Below, piece by piece: positions 6,525-48,461 of a stretch of DNA of 64,000 bases. The notes under the pieces were generated by a model. It ran no database searches. It saw only the letters and a program-made list of their open reading frames with translations, and was not told the origin of the DNA. The first letter of the stretch is position 1, and each line of letters starts with the position of its first letter. This stretch comes from Escherichia coli phage AZ21. The stretch lies in sequence record LC788708.1; one strand, given 5' to 3'. Both the position numbers and the translations under genes were made by a program.

Positions 6525-7004
6525 ATGTCGGTTTTCCACATTTACACAGATGGTGCTTGTAAGTCTAACCCAGGTCCAGGTGCTTGGGGTTTTATTGTCT
6601 ATAATGATAACGACGATCGTTTAGGTTCTAAATCTGGTTATAATCCTAAAACTACAAATAATGAGATGGAACTCACAGCTATTGTAGAAGCTCTACGTTG
6701 GTCTGTTAAAAAAGATAATAGACCAATTGCTATCTATACTGACTCTGCTTATTGCAAAAATGGCATGGAAAGCTGGATGTTTTCTTGGCAAAGGAAAGGC
6801 TGGAAGAAAGCAGATGGTGAAGTTCCTCTTAATCTAGAACTTTGGCAGGAAGCATTTAAATTAACACAGCAGTATATCAACTTTCATAATACTAATCCTA
6901 CCTTTATTAAGGTTAAAGGACATTCTGGTATTAGTGGTAATGAAGCTGTAGACGCCTTATGTAATACAGTTATTACTGAAGCTGAAATGGCTGAGATGTT
7001 ATAA
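6525..7004 (+). CDS. rnh: ribonuclease H (RNase HI family)
   Basis: YTDGAC..NPG, MELTA, YTDS motifs of RNase HI catalytic DEDD. Confidence 0.85.
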   Translation: MSVFHIYTDGACKSNPGPGAWGFIVYNDNDDRLGSKSGYNPKTTNNEMELTAIVEALRWSVKKDNRPIAIYTDSAYCKNGMESWMFSWQRKGWKKADGEVPLNLELWQEAFKLTQQYINFHNTNPTFIKVKGHSGISGNEAVDALCNTVITEAEMAEML

Positions 7005-8544: not shown

Positions 8545-9246
8545 ATGAAAGTAAAACCATTTGGTATGCTAGATATTGAATCTCTAGGAACTCCAGGAGA
8601 TTGTGGTACTACCCATATCGCAATGCCTTCATTCGCTTTTGTGGCTATGCATGGAATTGATAAAGACCCTGATCTAGTATTTGTTACTTTAGATGTACAA
8701 GATCAACTTAATTCTGGTGCCAAAGTTACAGCATCTACTCTAGCATTCTGGATGGATCAGGCTAAACATAGCCCGTCTGCTATCCACATTATGGAAGCTA
8801 TGAATGAGCGTAATCCAAAACTGGTTGCCTTCCAAAATGGTAAACATCATTGCACTAATAAACTTGGCTCTAACCATGCTGCCTTCTCTATGGCTCAAAA
8901 TATTATGGAGTTGGCTCTAGGCGAAAATGCTTTGTATTATGGCAATGGCCCAGAGTTTGATATGACTATCTACTCTGCAAACACTTTCCATGCTGGAACC
9001 AATGAAGAAATAGTTCCGTGGAAATTCTGGAACTTGGGTAATGTTAGATCTCTTCGTAATCTCTGGATGCAAACTGGCTATAGTTATAAAGCTCTAGAAA
9101 CCGAAGGTATTAGCTGGGCAATAGCTAAAATGGAGAAGATGGACACCATTCGTTATGGGATCTATCCGGTTAAGCACGACCCAGCATTCGATGCCCTAGT
9201 TGAGAGCTATTGTGTTGCAGCTATGATCGAAAAAATGAAAATTTGA
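8545..9246 (+). CDS. possible DEDD-type 3'-5' exonuclease
   Basis: N-terminal LDIESLG motif resembles exo I motif of DnaQ-like exonucleases; weak. Confidence 0.4.
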   Translation: MKVKPFGMLDIESLGTPGDCGTTHIAMPSFAFVAMHGIDKDPDLVFVTLDVQDQLNSGAKVTASTLAFWMDQAKHSPSAIHIMEAMNERNPKLVAFQNGKHHCTNKLGSNHAAFSMAQNIMELALGENALYYGNGPEFDMTIYSANTFHAGTNEEIVPWKFWNLGNVRSLRNLWMQTGYSYKALETEGISWAIAKMEKMDTIRYGIYPVKHDPAFDALVESYCVAAMIEKMKI

Positions 9247-9247
9247 T

Positions 9248-9276
9248 TTGCTTCCGGCTCCAAAATTCTGTATAAT
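9248..9276 (+). promoter_or_regulatory. T5-type early promoter
   Basis: TTGCTT-17-TATAAT then CATAAATTTGAG. Confidence 0.65.
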
Positions 9277-9316
9277 ATATTCATAAATTTGAGAAAACAA
9301 TAAAAGGAAAACAAAT

Positions 9317-9499
9317 ATGCCAGTATCTAAAAATGTTCGTAAAAATGGTAAGAAAGCTACTCGTAATCTGGGTATCCGTCGTATGGCTGAACGTCAATCA
9401 GGTATCCAGAAAATCTTTGATCTGCTAAATCGTGCTAATCCTAAAATTGATAACAGTAACGATACTGTTCTGCGCACCCTGCTGGCAATTGGTCTGTAA
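9317..9499 (+). CDS. small basic protein
   Basis: ORF behind promoter, AAAGGAAAAC RBS. Confidence 0.45.
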   Translation: MPVSKNVRKNGKKATRNLGIRRMAERQSGIQKIFDLLNRANPKIDNSNDTVLRTLLAIGL

Positions 9500-9552
9500 T
9501 AGACCAAATTTAAACAAATTCAAATCTCAAACTTCATATAAGGAAGCAAATA

Positions 9553-10191
9553 ATGACTACTCGTATCTCTAAAACTCGCGCTCTGGCAACTATCAAATCT
9601 CTGGAAGCTAAAATCCGTAAAGCTACTGAACAACAGCTTCTGATCGCTGTTGGTGAAGGTAAGGATAAAAACCAGGTTGTAGTTGGCGCTGCAATCGAAG
9701 TAGATGCCCTGTCTACTCGTATTAAAACTGATTTCCAATCTCTGCTGGATATGATGTCTCAGCGTGATCGTATTAAATCTGCTCTGATTAAGAGCAATGC
9801 AGAAACAATCGTTGAGATTGGTTCTCGTAAGATGACTGTTGCGGAAGCAATTGAAGCTAAGCGTTCTATGGAGCTTAAAGCTCAGCTGCTGGCTAACATG
9901 CGTAAGCAGTTCCATGCCGCTACGATTAAGTTTAATACGCAGAAAGCACAGTTTGATGCTAAATATGAGCGTTTGCAGGATAGCATGGCTACCCGCGATA
10001 AGAAAACTTCCGAAGATGAAGTTAAAATGCAGCTCAATCTGCTGGAACTCAAGAATACTCCATTCTTGATTGATCCGCTGGAACTGGAGAAGCTGATTAA
10101 GCAGCATGACGAGGAATACCAGGACTTTGCAACAAATGTTGACTTTGTTCTATCCGAGTCTAACGCCTCTACCTTCATTGAAGTAGAGTAA
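9553..10191 (+). CDS. coiled-coil protein
   Basis: High codon regularity; antisense ORFs rejected. Confidence 0.55.
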   Translation: MTTRISKTRALATIKSLEAKIRKATEQQLLIAVGEGKDKNQVVVGAAIEVDALSTRIKTDFQSLLDMMSQRDRIKSALIKSNAETIVEIGSRKMTVAEAIEAKRSMELKAQLLANMRKQFHAATIKFNTQKAQFDAKYERLQDSMATRDKKTSEDEVKMQLNLLELKNTPFLIDPLELEKLIKQHDEEYQDFATNVDFVLSESNASTFIEVE

Positions 10192-32279: not shown

Positions 32280-32884
32280 TGACTTTTAATACACAACAAT
32301 CTATTCAAGTAGTGCCAGATCATGAACTGAACACATGGGATTATAGCTTTAAAGATTTAACTGCTACTATACAATTTAAATCTATGAAGCTAACATTTGC
32401 ACACACTGATCTTAGAGCCTGTAAAGATCTTGAGGATAAGCTCGAAGATGCTCGTAAGATTTTTGGCAAGGCTCGCATCCCGGCTGATAATCTAATTAAC
32501 GCATTAATCGATGTAGGATACAAACTCGTGAAGACTGAGGTGAACCGCCCTAGTACTCCAGTGACTGTTAGAGATCCGTGGCAGCCAGGGACAATCTCAA
32601 TGCTAAATAAATCATCGGATATACACAATGTTCCATGCGGTGGTGTGGTAAGTAGTACGCAGTCATACAAGTTTGGTGAAGATTACGGCCCTTCTGTGCA
32701 GTTGAAACATACTCAAGAAGCTTTTGAATCTGATATGCGAAGCGTAGCACCTGTGGATGCTGGAGTTTCTAGGAGTTCTGTTTGTACTATTCATTTTAAT
32801 AATCCTAGTAAACATGGAAGTTTAGAGGATGCTATCCTTGAAGCGTTGGGAGCTGCTATTAATGAAGATAAAAGAGGTAGTTAA
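32279..32884 (+). CDS. hypothetical protein
   Basis: ORF. Confidence 0.45.
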   Translation: MTFNTQQSIQVVPDHELNTWDYSFKDLTATIQFKSMKLTFAHTDLRACKDLEDKLEDARKIFGKARIPADNLINALIDVGYKLVKTEVNRPSTPVTVRDPWQPGTISMLNKSSDIHNVPCGGVVSSTQSYKFGEDYGPSVQLKHTQEAFESDMRSVAPVDAGVSRSSVCTIHFNNPSKHGSLEDAILEALGAAINEDKRGS

Positions 32885-33781: not shown

Positions 33782-33810
33782 TTGACGTTATGATTTCTGC
33801 ATGTTATAAT
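33782..33810 (+). promoter_or_regulatory. near-consensus sigma70 promoter TTGACG-17-TATAAT firing into non-coding repeat region
   Basis: No ORF for about 1.8 kb downstream. Confidence 0.55.
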
Positions 33811-34138
33811 AACTCTATGAAATAACATAGAATAAAGAGATCCACCCGGATACGGATGGTGGATGGGAAACTTCTATTTCCCCCGTAGCTTGTCGGAGGG
33901 CTAGGGAAATCTTAAGAAGTTTTGTACCATCTCACGCAATTCGTATCCCAGGGGTGGAGCATCTCTTCCAATCTTTGGGGATCTTATACTTAAATTAAAG
34001 GTAAAACTTTTGGTCACATAATTTACATTCAAGATGATACACTGGTTGCCGCCATTCTTCCTAGGATGGCACAACACTTTCTTCTAGACTCCTAAGTTTC
34101 TAGGAATACTAACTCTAGAGTTTACACTAAACTTTGAA

Positions 34139-34876
34139 TCGGATTCGCACATGCTCTAGGGCAGTTTTTCATCTACTATAAATATCCTAGGCCGGTTTTC
34201 CTATACAGGGCGGTTATGGGGAGGGCGGTTATTTCTAGACAATAAAATTTACTCTTGTCAGTCCAGAAATTACTGTCGGATTTGCACATTGTGTTTCTAG
34301 AAATTTATGGTCGGATTTGCACAATTGCCTAAGTTTTTAGGAACATATAATCTCCTGAAAATGGCAGCATTATTTCGGGCCGAAGGCCCATGATTGCCTG
34401 AGTTTTTTTAGAGACACAGAAATTTTCACTTGTCAAGCTATTTTGCCCCATTTTGCTAATAAAATTTTACTTTATCTCCCCTAATCTCAAATTAACCCAA
34501 ATCTTCTCAACTCTTCTCCAAAATCCCCGCAAATCAGGTGCTCCGCACCAAACATGCGCCCCTCCCGTAGTTCCCCCAAGTTTCTCTCGATCTCTCAACT
34601 TCTCCCCAAACTCATACAATCACACACCCTCCAATCGAAGTCACAAAAATCTTGTCGGATTCGCACAAATAAACCCATGTCGGATTTGCACATATTCTAG
34701 TTAATTCCACAGGATTGATGCGCAGCATCGGATTGCTGGAGTTTTTGGGAGAATTCATTGTCGGATTCGCACACTATAAAAATTTTTCGGGTCGGATTTG
34801 CACACTACCAAAAATTGTCGGATTCGCACATACACGCCCACGCGTAATCCATGGGGGCAAATGTCGGATTTGCACA
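34139..34876 (+). repeat. nine dispersed copies of 15-bp motif TGTCGGATT(T/C)GCACA
   Basis: Copies at 34139, 34274, 34309, 34653, 34678, 34759, 34789, 34816, 34862, all same orientation. Confidence 0.8.
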
Positions 34877-34903
34877 AAAGCGCAGGGCAATTGCCCTGCT
34901 TGC

Positions 34904-35078
34904 CTGAATGCGAATGATAATGAGAATCATTTGCATTTAAAAAGCGGAATGAGAATGATAATAATTCGCATTTAAGAATGGAAGTGAGAATTATTCAGGA
35001 AGTGAAACGATTCTCATTTAAAAAGTGAAACGATTCTCATTTAGAAAGTGAAACGCGAATGATAATGATTCGTATTTA
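34904..35078. promoter_or_regulatory. array of Fur-box-like AT-rich palindromes (GAATGATAATGAGAATCATT family)
   Basis: At least five overlapping units, incl. tandem AAGTGAAACGATTCTCATTTA x2; related copies at 35413, 35805, 39463. Confidence 0.5.
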
Positions 35079-35290
35079 AGAATGGAAGTGAGAAACACTA
35101 TTATTTAAGTTATCCACAGACTTATCAACAGCACGATTTGACTTGACAGAATCCTAGCCATTTTGAGGCGTTATCAACAGACTTATCAACAGCTTATCCT
35201 ACTGTATAAATATACAGTATTCCTATGCAGTGAATAATTCTAATATACAGCTAAAACGCTCTCAAACGCATTCTAACGCGTTTAATTTTG
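35076..35290. repeat. left arm of about 215-bp imperfect inverted repeat (contains DnaA boxes TTATCCACA / TTATCAACA)
   Basis: Hand alignment with reverse complement of 39121-39336 (shared AAGTGAGAARCACTATYATTTAAGTTATCCACA, CAGACTTATC, ACTGTATAAATATACAG, AAACGCATTCTAACG). Confidence 0.75.
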
Positions 35291-35789: not shown

Positions 35790-35915
35790 AATGCCATCGC
35801 CCCTAGAATGAGAATGATTATCAATATCATTGTGAAGCCATTACCAAATCGTAAACGCTGGGAATGTTTCCCAGCGGTATTATTAGACTTATGGCTTTGT
35901 GTTTTTCGCCACCAG

Positions 35916-47978: not shown

Positions 47979-48461
47979 ATGGCAAATGATGTATTAGTTC
48001 CCGATCTCATGTCTCCCGAAGGCATGGATGTTATTGAAGCCTATTTACAGTGCGGTAGTGATGTTCCTGCCGCCGCTCGTAGTCTTGGAATGTCCGAGAT
48101 TGCATTTCGTGATATAATGAATCGTGGGGAAGTTAAAAACTATCTCAACGATATCTTTATGGAAAGCGGCTTCCGTAATCGTGACCGCTTATTCGGAGTT
48201 CTTGATGAAGTTATCAAACGCAAGTTGGAAGAACTCGAAGAAACTGGCATGGGTTCTGACCAGGATATCATGGATATTCTCTGGAAGGCGCACAAGATGA
48301 AGATGGAAGAAATGAAAATGATGGTAGAACTGGAGAAAGTGAAGGCAGCAGCCCGTACTCCGGCTAACCAGACTAATATTCAGAATAATATTATTGCTGG
48401 AAGTGGTGACGAAAACTATATGAATCTTATTACCGCTCTAGCAGGAGGAGGTAAGAGATAA
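47979..48461 (+). CDS. terS: terminase small subunit
   Basis: HTH-like N-terminus, directly upstream of and coupled to terL. Confidence 0.55.

What the first reader, a model, noticed from the sequence alone, without database searches (positions are those of the whole stretch)
34139..34876. Nine same-orientation copies of a 15-bp TGT-N9-ACA motif, TGTCGGATT(T/C)GCACA, in an ORF-free region
Copies occur at 34139 (partial), 34274, 34309, 34653, 34678, 34759, 34789, 34816 and 34862. Spacing is irregular, often in close pairs 25-35 bp apart. The TTT and TTC variants alternate. Each copy is an imperfect dyad, which is the look of a binding-site array for a dimeric DNA-binding protein (phage A2-like or host factor). 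In T5-like phages this position, between early genes and the pre-early genes, corresponds to the injection-stop / first-step-transfer boundary, so these may be the protein-binding elements of that pause signal.
Basis: partly seen in the sequence, partly recalled or inferred. Interest (0 to 1): 0.75.

Follow-up and report, generated by a model that had tools for sequence, protein, structure and literature searches.

The report
Known T5 "DRD" boundary repeats
The nine repeats are real and strongly non-random, but they are the "direct repeat D" copies already annotated at the inner end of phage T5's terminal repeat (the injection-stop region), and nobody yet knows which protein reads them.

Summary
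Nine same-strand copies of TCGGATT(T/C)GCACA lie in 738 bp, and the 104-kb genome holds no other perfect copy.

The window is Escherichia phage AZ23, a T5-like Tequintavirus. The copies match, with identical spacing, the nine "direct repeat D" (DRD) features annotated in the T5 record AY587007.1. DRD copies 1-6 lie inside the region another T5 record annotates as the injection stop signal. The finding is therefore already known, although papers up to 2026 still assign the repeats no function.

What I add:
- The conserved unit is an asymmetric 12-13 bp core. The TGT...ACA dyad and the T/C alternation are not conserved.
- Co-oriented copies occur in every phage checked from Tequintavirus, Epseptimavirus, Sugarlandvirus, Serratia phage Slocum, Pectobacterium phage My1 and a Vibrio T5-like phage. 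A Proteus phage keeps only relics.
- Wherever PhageTerm or a concordant annotation gives the terminal-repeat end, it lies in the repeat-free gap between two DRD clusters or, in the Vibrio phage, beside the single cluster.
- In all examined lineages but My1, the last copy sits 0-3 bp from the major-nick consensus.
- The motif is not a DnaA box.

Best guess, unproven: docking sites for a conserved phage protein at the boundary between first-step and second-step DNA. A2 with A1 is about 0.3 likely; terminase is a close rival.

The parts
34139..34151 (+). DRD copy 9 (core TCGGATTCGCACA, preceded by AA); outside the terminal repeat
   Evidence: corresponds to T5 AY587007 'direct repeat D copy 9'. 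It is lost or degenerate in BF23, chee24 and EscoHU1.
34276..34288 (+). DRD copy 8 (TG+TCGGATTTGCACA); outside the terminal repeat
   Evidence: invariant in 8 aligned phages
34311..34323 (+). DRD copy 7 (GG+TCGGATTTGCACA); outside the terminal repeat. In T5, BF23, EscoHU1 and Sepoy the repeat end lies 86 bp beyond it.
34363..34409 (+). Terminator-like hairpin (GGCAGCAU...GGGCC-GAA-GGCCC...AUUGCC) followed by a U7 run; context element in the DRD-free gap
   Evidence: MFE -21.7 kcal/mol, z = -2.24; the block is conserved in 8 phages
34412..34413 (.). Inferred inner end of the terminal repeat (TR side to the right in window orientation). Placed by homology to the T5 10139|10140 junction ...TTTTTAGA|TCCACAG.
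   Evidence: not determined experimentally for AZ23
34655..34667 (+). DRD copy 6 (TCGGATTCGCACA); first copy inside the terminal repeat
34680..34692 (+). DRD copy 5 (TCGGATTTGCACA); displaced by exactly 10 bp in BF23, Kenya-K20 and DT571/2
34761..34773 (+). DRD copy 4 (TCGGATTCGCACA)
   Evidence: destroyed in DT571/2
34792..34804 (+). DRD copy 3 (GG+TCGGATTTGCACA)
34818..34830 (+). DRD copy 2 (TCGGATTCGCACA)
34864..34876 (+). DRD copy 1 (TCGGATTTGCACA); last copy, joined to the nick site
34879..34886 (+). Major-nick consensus R/GCGCRGG (AGCGCAGG), 2 nt after DRD1. It corresponds to the T5 'major nick 1, 7.9%'.
   Evidence: The DRD1-nick composite is conserved in 11 of 12 phages examined.
32615..32627 (+). 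Degenerate solitary tenth DRD (TCGGATATACACA, 2 mismatches) inside the T5.019-like ORF
   Evidence: It is perfect in BF23, EscoHU1, DT571/2 and phiR2-01, and also in Slocum, where it lies in a non-homologous ORF and a different frame.

Best explanation
The nine copies are the DRD repeats of T5-like phages. They form a cis-acting array of co-oriented, asymmetric 12-13 bp recognition sites, each usually preceded by a short A-tract. The array brackets the inner end of the terminal repeat, which is the boundary between first-step (FST) and second-step (SST) DNA.

Shown here:
- The array is real, unique in the genome and phage-specific.
- It is conserved from T5 to a Vibrio T5-like phage while the surrounding non-coding DNA diverges.
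- It is always co-oriented where recognisable, it is redundant (single copies are lost without loss of the array), and it is not a DnaA box.

Inferred:
- The sites are read by a sequence-specific DNA-binding protein that is conserved in these phages.
On this view A2 is made during the pause and docks on the first sites to emerge beyond the paused DNA. It stops back-sliding and hands the DNA to the A1/A2 machinery, so that second-step transfer restarts in one direction.
- The copies inside the repeat would do the same job when the right repeat enters.

The binder's identity and the restart role are guesses, not results.
For: Reality and uniqueness:
-.

Identity with the annotated T5 DRD copies and the annotated iss:
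-.

Phage specificity:
- The paired-DRD pattern was found in 43 IMG/VR stretches, all on ~100-123 kb contigs of T5-like genome size; several have lengths identical to T5-like GenBank records seen here. In 185,579 bacterial genomes it was found only on two 2.5-3 kb MAG contigs.

Deep conservation and co-orientation:
-. No locus has sites on both strands.
- A blastn search with 11-base words finds no similarity to Klebsiella or Serratia phages across the DRD part of the region, yet perfect cores are present there.

Other anatomy:
- DRD5 is shifted by exactly 10 bp, about one helical turn, in three phages.
- An A-rich tract lies 7-9 nt upstream of the core.

Position and the A2 candidate:
- T5 DRD1 starts at 9672, next to the nominal FST shear point of ~9618.
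- A2 is a DNA-binding dimer essential for SST, with an unknown mechanism.
- The A2 gene is in the window at 40819-41226.
- A2 is 43% identical to its Vibrio-phage homologue, and the two motifs VRSKL and VRKxHYVR are kept.
- The AlphaFold2 model of A2 is all-helical: two modules joined by a basic Gly-rich linker.
Against: - No binding data exist for any protein.
- Davison places the stop signal left of the shear point. The DRDs then lie right of it, so at the nominal 7.9% they may not yet be in the cytoplasm when A2 is made.
- In the Vibrio phage all copies lie outside the annotated repeat.
- Proteus phage 1 keeps the conserved A2 motifs but has only degenerate or inverted DRD relics.
- The A2 model has no significant structural neighbour (best Foldseek E-value 0.66), so its binding mode is unknown.
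- The terminal-repeat end and the 7.9% nick both lie within the array. That points at least as naturally to the packaging machinery.
Confidence: 0.3

Rival explanations
1. Packaging or terminus array. The DRDs are binding sites for the terminase small subunit (annotated 'SciB' in AKFV33), or another late protein. That protein positions the double-strand cut that makes the terminal-repeat end, and the adjacent 7.9% nick. This would resemble repeats that flank or adjoin the cut site in P1 pac, SPP1 pacL/pacR and lambda cosB.
For: - The annotated repeat end falls in the DRD-free gap. It lies 86 bp beyond DRD7 and about 245 bp before DRD6 in T5, BF23 (PhageTerm), EscoHU1 and Sepoy (PhageTerm).
- The same architecture, with different distances, is seen in phiR2-01, KpGranit, IME260, Slocum and My1. 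In Chester the boundary is 43 bp after the last copy.
- In nine IMG/VR genomes that hold both repeats, one copy has exactly one extra DRD pair.
- DRD1 is 0-3 bp from the nick consensus in 11 of 12 phages.
- The nicking genes sciA and sciB map to the late region. The TerS homologue is annotated SciB in AKFV33, and the fragmentary T5 record M62847 labels it 'sciB: putative'.
Against: - The putative helix-turn-helix part of TerS is poorly conserved between AZ23 and the Vibrio phage (44% overall; the recognition-helix positions differ), although the DRD core is identical.
- No DRD lies at the left genome terminus.
- The five other nick-consensus sites have no DRD nearby.
- Distances from the cut to the nearest DRD vary between genera.
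- Two records, chee24 and Kenya-K20, annotate the repeat end elsewhere.
- The packaging direction of T5 is not settled in the sources I could read.
Confidence: 0.25
2. Host or virion 'brake'. The DRDs are the stop signal itself, caught by a pre-existing host protein or an ejected virion protein as the DNA threads in. Many co-oriented copies would give repeated chances to arrest fast-moving DNA.
For: - The stop needs no new protein synthesis.
- The core is conserved across phages of Enterobacterales and Vibrio in the same way as the neighbouring DnaA boxes and LexA box, which are host-protein sites.
- The array starts about 50 bp from the nominal shear point.
Against: - No array of this motif occurs in 185,579 bacterial genomes, and I could recall no known host factor with this site.
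- The motif is not a DnaA box. It matches 8 of 9 positions at best, T at position 1 is never present, the conserved TCGG lies outside the 9-mer, and the final A is lost in My1 and Chester.
- The Proteus phage keeps the DnaA and LexA boxes but not the DRDs.
- Ejection in vitro through FhuA is complete.
Confidence: 0.12
3. Iterons of a replication or repeat-duplication origin. A phage initiator would bind the co-oriented repeats next to the DnaA boxes and a strand-asymmetric tract.
For: - The repeats are co-oriented and fall in clusters of 6 + 2 + 1.
- DnaA-box pairs lie about 230-330 bp away.
- A 213-bp tract with 7% G lies in the gap.
- A conserved promoter fires into the region.
Against: - No initiator gene lies next to the array. 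The neighbouring T5.018/019-like genes are not conserved in Chester, My1 or Slocum.
- The sites are 12-13 bp, shorter than classical iterons, and irregularly spaced.
- Published electron microscopy places T5 origins near the genome centre.
Confidence: 0.1
4. RNA-level element. The repeats act in a transcript made from the conserved promoter at 33782-33810, as binding sites for an RNA-binding protein.
For: - A strong promoter directly follows the last early gene and points at the DRDs on the same strand. Its -10 element ATGTTATMAT is conserved in all 8 aligned phages and its -35 in those whose aligned sequence reaches it; look-alike promoters occur in Proteus phage 1 and Chester.
- Strict co-orientation is what an RNA motif needs.
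- Y at core position 8 is compatible with pairing to a G.
Against: - No Rfam match.
- No transcript data.
- A terminator-like hairpin plus U7 separates copies 9-7 from copies 6-1.
- The Chester variants lose the GGA.
- I saw no covarying structure around the copies.
Confidence: 0.05

Closest known systems
T5 'direct repeat D' (DRD) copies 1-9 of Repeat Region 3 / the injection-stop (iss) region (GenBank AY587007.1; Davison 2020 bioRxiv 10.1101/866236)
   Same: Same sequence (TGTGCRAATCCGACA on the T5 + strand), same copy number, identical spacings (46, 26, 31, 81, 25, 344, 35, 137), and the same place between pre-early and early genes.
   Different: Nothing of substance. The T/C state differs at four copies (2, 3, 4 and 9), and the record is a different isolate (AZ23).
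DnaA boxes (TTWTNCACA), which Davison proposed as the T5 stop signal
   Same: The DRD sub-string ATTTGCACA matches 8 of 9 positions. Genuine DnaA boxes lie about 230-330 bp away.
   Different: Position 1 is never T. The C variant matches 7 of 9. The invariant TCGG lies outside the 9-mer. The final A is not conserved in My1 or Chester.
Terminase recognition repeats beside a cut site (P1 pac hexamers, SPP1 pacL/pacR, lambda cosB R sites); recalled from general knowledge
   Same: Short repeats in clusters on one or both sides of a site-specific cut.
   Different: Binding by T5 TerS is untested. The TerS helix-turn-helix part is not conserved where the motif is. The nearest DRD is 43-350 bp from the cut.
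Iterons of plasmid and phage origins (for example RK2 oriV, lambda ori); recalled from general knowledge
   Same: Co-oriented repeats in clusters near DnaA boxes.
   Different: The unit is shorter and the spacing irregular. There is no adjacent initiator gene and no evidence of origin activity.
Polar DNA motifs read by translocases (KOPS for FtsK, Chi for RecBCD); recalled from general knowledge
   Same: Strict co-orientation of an asymmetric motif at a place where DNA is translocated directionally.
   Different: Those motifs are spread genome-wide. DRDs are confined to one roughly 740-bp locus plus one solitary copy.

Membership tests
T5 DRD repeats (Repeat Region 3 / iss region) | 13-15 bp sequence TGTGCRAATCCGACA (reverse complement TGTCGGATTYGCACA) | tested here: met
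T5 DRD repeats (Repeat Region 3 / iss region) | Nine copies with the T5 spacing pattern | tested here: met
   T5 copies start at 9672, 9718, 9744, 9775, 9856, 9881, 10225, 10260 and 10397. The window spacings, read right to left, are 46, 26, 31, 81, 25, 344, 35 and 137.
T5 DRD repeats (Repeat Region 3 / iss region) | Location in the untranslated region between pre-early and early genes at the inner end of the terminal repeat of a T5-like phage | tested here: met
Functional injection-stop signal | The cis element is necessary for arrest of DNA transfer at about 8% | not testable with these tools
   Only positional evidence exists. The published discussion puts the stop left of the DRDs.
DnaA box | Match to TTWTNCACA, with conservation confined to the 9-mer | tested here: not met
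   8 of 9 or 7 of 9 matches. TCGG outside the 9-mer is invariant, and the last A is not conserved in My1 or Chester.
Dyad-symmetric operator for a dimeric DNA-binding protein | Two-fold symmetric half-sites, conserved on both sides | tested here: not met
   Half-sites match 4-5 of 7. Information content is 0.64 bits at position -2 and 1.17 bits at -1, against 1.95 bits at position 12 and 1.43 bits at position 13. The arms are lost in My1 and Chester, and all copies are co-oriented.
Terminase (TerS) recognition repeats | Repeats adjoin the site-specific terminase cut | tested here: met
   (ten phages; two further records annotate the end differently)
Terminase (TerS) recognition repeats | Specific binding by the small terminase subunit | not testable with these tools
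   Indirect evidence only: the TerS helix-turn-helix part diverges where the motif does not.
Origin iterons | Cognate initiator gene next to the repeats, and origin activity | tested here: inconclusive
   Neighbouring genes are not conserved with the array. Origin activity cannot be tested here.
Known RNA family | Match to an Rfam covariance model | tested here: not met
   (only two chance-level hits, E-values 0.65 and 0.94)

The most novel reading that the evidence does not exclude
The DRD core, with its attached nick site, is a family-wide polar 'boundary mark' of Demerecviridae. One conserved phage protein (A2, terminase, or an unrecognised factor) would read it and couple two events that coincide on the genome map: the point where injection pauses and restarts, and the point where the terminal repeat is cut during packaging. 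That would explain why the first-step DNA and the terminal repeat end at nearly the same place.
Probability: 0.2. Interest if true: 0.65.

Novelty: already known. Interest (0 to 1): 0.3.

Why it matters
Two-step DNA injection by T5 has lacked a mechanism since the 1960s. Papers from 2020 to 2026 still describe the stop region only as 'rich in repeats and palindromes'.

The DRD array is one of the few elements of that region kept from E. coli phages to a Vibrio phage. It is short, asymmetric and redundant, so it can be scrambled and used as bait. Finding its reader would show whether the pause and restart of injection, the cutting of the terminal repeat and the 7.9% nick share one machine.

As a discovery the finding adds nothing new. 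Its value is as a sharpened, testable target.

Tried and rejected
- DnaA-box reading of the motif. Rejected on the logo and on the My1 and Chester variants.
- General link between DRDs and nick sites. Rejected: six RGCGCRGG sites occur in AZ23, all on one strand, and only the 7.9% site has a DRD.
Rejected: they are absent next to the arrays of Chester, My1 and Slocum.
- Presence or absence of A2 or TerS as a discriminator. Useless: both have homologues in Proteus phages (10 records each), and Proteus phage 1, the one examined, has only DRD relics.
- Structure of A2. The model is good (mean pLDDT 84.5), but Foldseek against the PDB gave nothing significant. The best E-value was 0.66, and only weak hits to tandem helix-turn-helix, Myb or transposase-type domains appeared.
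- IMG/VR scan for three spaced ATTTGCAC 8-mers, meant to find arrays outside Demerecviridae. It returned more than 120 mostly unrelated stretches and was uninformative.
- Rfam scan of the region: nothing.
- Full-text search for the motif string: only unrelated primer sequences.
- Davison 2015 (PMC4743489) could not be read because it is not held.
- Phylogenetic footprint within Tequintavirus and Epseptimavirus. It is weak (core columns 0.906 against 0.872 for the rest) because the whole region is conserved. The informative contrast comes only from the distant genera.

Full report
**Observation**

The nine copies are present on the + strand. As 15-mers they start at 34137, 34274, 34309, 34653, 34678, 34759, 34790, 34816 and 34862. 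With up to two mismatches the 64-kb window holds 10 matches against 0.16 expected from shuffles; the tenth, at 6526, has two mismatches. The 13-bp core TCGGATTYGCACA is perfect in all nine copies.

I rebuilt the whole 104,075-bp genome from the window and two fetched stretches. The nine copies are its only perfect copies. The closest others are a 1-mismatch and a 2-mismatch tandem inside a coding region, and four 2-mismatch sites. Uniform placement would put all nine within 738 bp with a probability of about 6e-17.

**What the sequence is**

The region is 100% identical to Escherichia coli phage AZ23 (LC788707.1, Tequintavirus). It is 82-94% identical to hundreds of T5-like phages. The window + strand is the T5 minus strand.

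The T5 record AY587007.1 annotates 'direct repeat D copy 1' to 'copy 9' at 9672, 9718, 9744, 9775, 9856, 9881, 10225, 10260 and 10397. Those spacings are 46, 26, 31, 81, 25, 344, 35 and 137. They are exactly the window spacings read from right to left, and the sequences are the same.

The other T5 record, AY543070.1, annotates 9140-10149 as 'injection stop signal (iss)'. [quoted passage not shown] The finding is therefore a rediscovery of a described and annotated feature.

The literature assigns the feature no function. Davison favours the DnaA boxes in IRD'-spacer-IRC', together with the DRE repeats, which lie left of the shear point. He says his model 'assigns no role' to the other repeats. 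Papers from 2023 and 2026 still call the mechanism unknown.

**Anatomy of the repeat**

I collected 188 distinct instances from 50-odd loci. Core positions 1-13 carry almost all the information. Position -1 is G in 74% of instances and A in 26%. Position -2 is T in 66%. An A-rich tract lies at -9 to -7. The core columns were constrained by the search criterion and many instances are orthologous, so the flanks are the unbiased part of this logo.

Read as a dyad, TGTCGGA/T/TCGCACA matches 5 of 7 positions in the C variant and 4 of 7 in the T variant. In My1 the copies read TATCGGATTTGCACTG, and in the Vibrio phage TAGAATTTGCACC or TCGGATTTGCACC. Neither the TGT arm nor the final A of the ACA arm is conserved there. 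The unit is thus an asymmetric TCGGATTTGCAC.

No locus has copies on both strands.

The T/C at core position 8 is always T at copies 1, 7 and 8 and nearly always C at copy 6. It is polymorphic at copies 2-4. The alternation seen in AZ23 is therefore incidental.

Individual copies are dispensable. Copy 9 is missing in BF23 and chee24, copy 5 is degraded in EscoHU1, and copy 4 is destroyed in DT571/2. In BF23, Kenya-K20 and DT571/2 copy 5 sits exactly 10 bp, about one helical turn, from its position in T5 and AZ23.

**Distribution**

A pattern of two DRDs 8-38 bp apart occurs in 43 stretches of the IMG/VR viral collection. In 185,579 bacterial and archaeal genomes it occurs only on two MAG contigs of 2.5-3 kb. 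I did not inspect those two contigs; their size suggests mis-binned phage fragments.

Perfect, co-oriented copies are present in:
- Tequintavirus: T5, BF23, chee24, DT571/2, Kenya-K20
- Epseptimavirus: EscoHU1, Sepoy, phiR2-01
- Sugarlandvirus: KpGranit, IME260
- Serratia phage Slocum
- Pectobacterium phage My1 (Mccorquodalevirinae)
- Vibrio phage Chester (Ermolyevavirinae), as eight copies

The A1 protein of Chester is only 34% identical to that of AZ23.

A blastn search with 11-base words finds no similarity between AZ23 and the Klebsiella or Serratia phages across the DRD part of the region. The cores are nevertheless intact there, which is the real phylogenetic footprint. Within Tequintavirus and Epseptimavirus the whole 1.4-kb region is conserved, so the cores barely stand out (0.906 against 0.872).

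Proteus phage 1 (Novosibvirus) keeps the DnaA boxes, the LexA box and the promoter. Of the DRDs it has only a relic of copy 1 (TCGATTACGCACA) and a few inverted TTTGCAG motifs.

**Relation to the terminal repeat and the nick**

The repeat end annotated in T5 (10139), BF23 (by PhageTerm), EscoHU1 and Sepoy (PhageTerm) lies at the same point. It is 86 bp beyond copy 7 and about 245 bp before copy 6. By homology the boundary in the window is 34412|34413.

| Phage | Distance from repeat end to nearest outer / inner copy |
|---|---|
| phiR2-01 | 121 / 245 bp |
| KpGranit | 118 / 137 bp |
| IME260 | 99 / 157 bp |
| Slocum | 124 / 247 bp |
| My1 | 247 / 353 bp |
| Chester | 43 bp after the last copy; all copies lie outside the repeat |

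Two records, chee24 and Kenya-K20, annotate the end elsewhere.

Independent support comes from the IMG/VR loci. In nine genomes assembled with both repeats, one repeat copy has exactly one more DRD pair than the other. In AZ23, therefore, copies 9-7 are unique DNA and copies 6-1 are repeat DNA.

No DRD lies at the left genome terminus.

Copy 1 is followed after 0-3 nt by RGCGCAGG in 11 of 12 phages examined, including the Vibrio phage and the Proteus relic. This is the published consensus of the T5 major nicks, R/GCGCRGG, and corresponds to T5 'major nick 1, 7.9%'. The five other consensus sites in AZ23 have no DRD nearby.

A solitary tenth copy lies 1.9-2.4 kb into the early region. It encodes SD(L/M/I)HN in the T5.019-like protein. 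In Slocum a perfect copy lies in a non-homologous ORF and in another frame, which argues for selection at the DNA level. In AZ23 this copy has decayed to two mismatches, at 32615.

**Context**

The array lies between convergent gene sets.

- A strong promoter, TTGACG-17-TATAAT with an upstream TG, sits at 33782-33810. It directly follows the last early gene and points into the region. Its -10 element is conserved in all 8 aligned phages, and its -35 in those whose aligned sequence reaches it.
- A terminator-like hairpin and a U7 run end 3 nt before the inferred repeat boundary.
- A 213-bp tract with 7% G follows.
- To the right of copy 1 come Fur-box-like repeats, paired DnaA boxes and a 19-of-20 match to the LexA box.

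**Who reads the repeats**

- DnaA is unlikely. The match is 8 of 9 at best, the invariant TCGG lies outside the 9-mer, and the final A is lost in My1 and Chester.
- The adjacent early genes are not conserved together with the array.
- A2 (window 40819-41226) is the essential second-step-transfer protein and binds DNA. It is 43% identical to the Chester homologue and 39% to the Proteus one, and the VRSKL and VRKxHYVR motifs are kept. Its model is two helical modules joined by a basic Gly-rich linker. The model has no significant structural neighbour.
- TerS (window 47979-48461; annotated SciB in AKFV33) is 44% identical to the Chester homologue. Its putative recognition helix is not conserved.

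**Mechanism and odds**

What is shown is a conserved, redundant, polar, phage-specific cis element at the boundary between FST and SST DNA, which is also the terminal-repeat boundary. Everything beyond that is inference.

| Explanation | Estimated probability |
|---|---|
| Docking array for A2/A1 that restarts transfer | about 0.30 |
| Terminase or packaging array that sets the repeat end and the 7.9% nick | about 0.25 |
| Host- or virion-protein brake | about 0.12 |
| Iterons | about 0.10 |
| RNA element | about 0.05 |
| Something else | the remainder |

The first two could both be true if one protein marks the boundary for both processes.

**Verdict**

The feature is already known, and its interest is modest.

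Noticed in passing
window 35200-35219: TACTGTATAAATATACAGTA matches the LexA (SOS) box consensus at 19 of 20 positions, with 0.00 matches expected in the window. It is T5 'palindrome D'. It is conserved in all 8 aligned phages, and look-alikes occur in Vibrio phage Chester (two copies) and Proteus phage 1. Davison 2020 does not mention LexA.
   Followed up: partly
window 34916-34934, 35810-35828, 44725-44749 (and weaker copies at 34950-35080): Fur-box-like sequences matching GATAATGATAATCATTATC with 3 or fewer mismatches: 6 matches against 0.05 expected, all in the terminal repeat. The T5 'DRC' repeats and palindromes E-I are built from them. T5 uses the Fur-regulated receptor FhuA. Davison 2020 does not mention Fur.
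   Followed up: partly
window 33782-33810 (+) and 34363-34409 (+): A strong sigma-70-type promoter (TTGACG-17-TATAAT with TG) directly follows the last early gene and fires into the non-coding region. Its -10 element is conserved in all 8 aligned phages (-35 where the aligned sequence reaches it), and look-alikes occur in Proteus phage 1 and Chester. A terminator-like hairpin and U7 run end 3 nt before the inferred terminal-repeat boundary. From memory, this recalls RNA-polymerase pausing at the T7 concatemer junction.
   Followed up: partly
window 34440-34652: A 213-bp tract has only 7% G on the + strand and a 73-nt G-free run. It lies just inside the terminal repeat. Vibrio phage Chester has about 14 copies of an 8-bp TCTAGNCN unit at the very start of its repeat. 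Proteus phage 1 has about 10 copies of CCATTCTATTAYT at 15-18 bp spacing in the equivalent place.
   Followed up: partly
window 34879-34886, and AZ23 record 7043, 28281, 47780, 56498, 82783: The T5 major-nick consensus RGCGCRGG occurs six times in the genome, always on the window + strand (T5 minus strand) and never on the other. Only the 7.9% site adjoins a DRD, and that composite is conserved in 11 of 12 phages examined.
   Followed up: yes
AZ23 record 6655-6682 (L057; outside the window): A tandem DRD-like pair, TCGGATTTGCACC-TG-TAGGTTTTGCACA, lies on the same strand as the array. It is inside a 612-aa gene on the other strand; from gene order I judge this to be D13-like. No nick consensus lies beside it. 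Conservation in relatives was not checked.
   Followed up: no
window 32615-32627 and loci L047, L049, L052, L054, L180: A solitary tenth DRD lies 1.9-2.4 kb into the early genes. It is perfect in five phages, including Slocum, where the ORF is not homologous. It has decayed in AZ23.
   Followed up: partly
L061 1-10 and L003 1630-1640 (T5 termini): The T5 left end starts TGTCCACTG and the right end finishes CTGTGGATC. Read toward each end, both finish C(A/T)GTGGA(C/T)N. This is a short inverted similarity and may be chance.
   Followed up: no
window 39224-39305 and 39557-39632: A second cluster of DnaA boxes (TTATCCACA twice, plus variants) lies on both strands about 4.5 kb into the pre-early region. 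It probably corresponds to Davison's IRC-spacer-IRD (Repeat Region 2).
   Followed up: no
window 34195-34235: Duplicated GGGCGGTTAT units (ACAGGGCGGTTATGGGGAGGGCGGTTAT) include GGGGAGGG, which fits the KOPS pattern GGGNAGGG. The block is invariant in 8 phages, and a related CAGGGCGGTTAT occurs in Proteus phage 1.
   Followed up: no
window 47979-48461: The terminase small subunit homologue is annotated 'SciB protein' in AKFV33, and the fragmentary T5 record M62847 labels it 'sciB: putative'. If that is right, a gene implicated in T5 nicking is the small terminase.
   Followed up: partly
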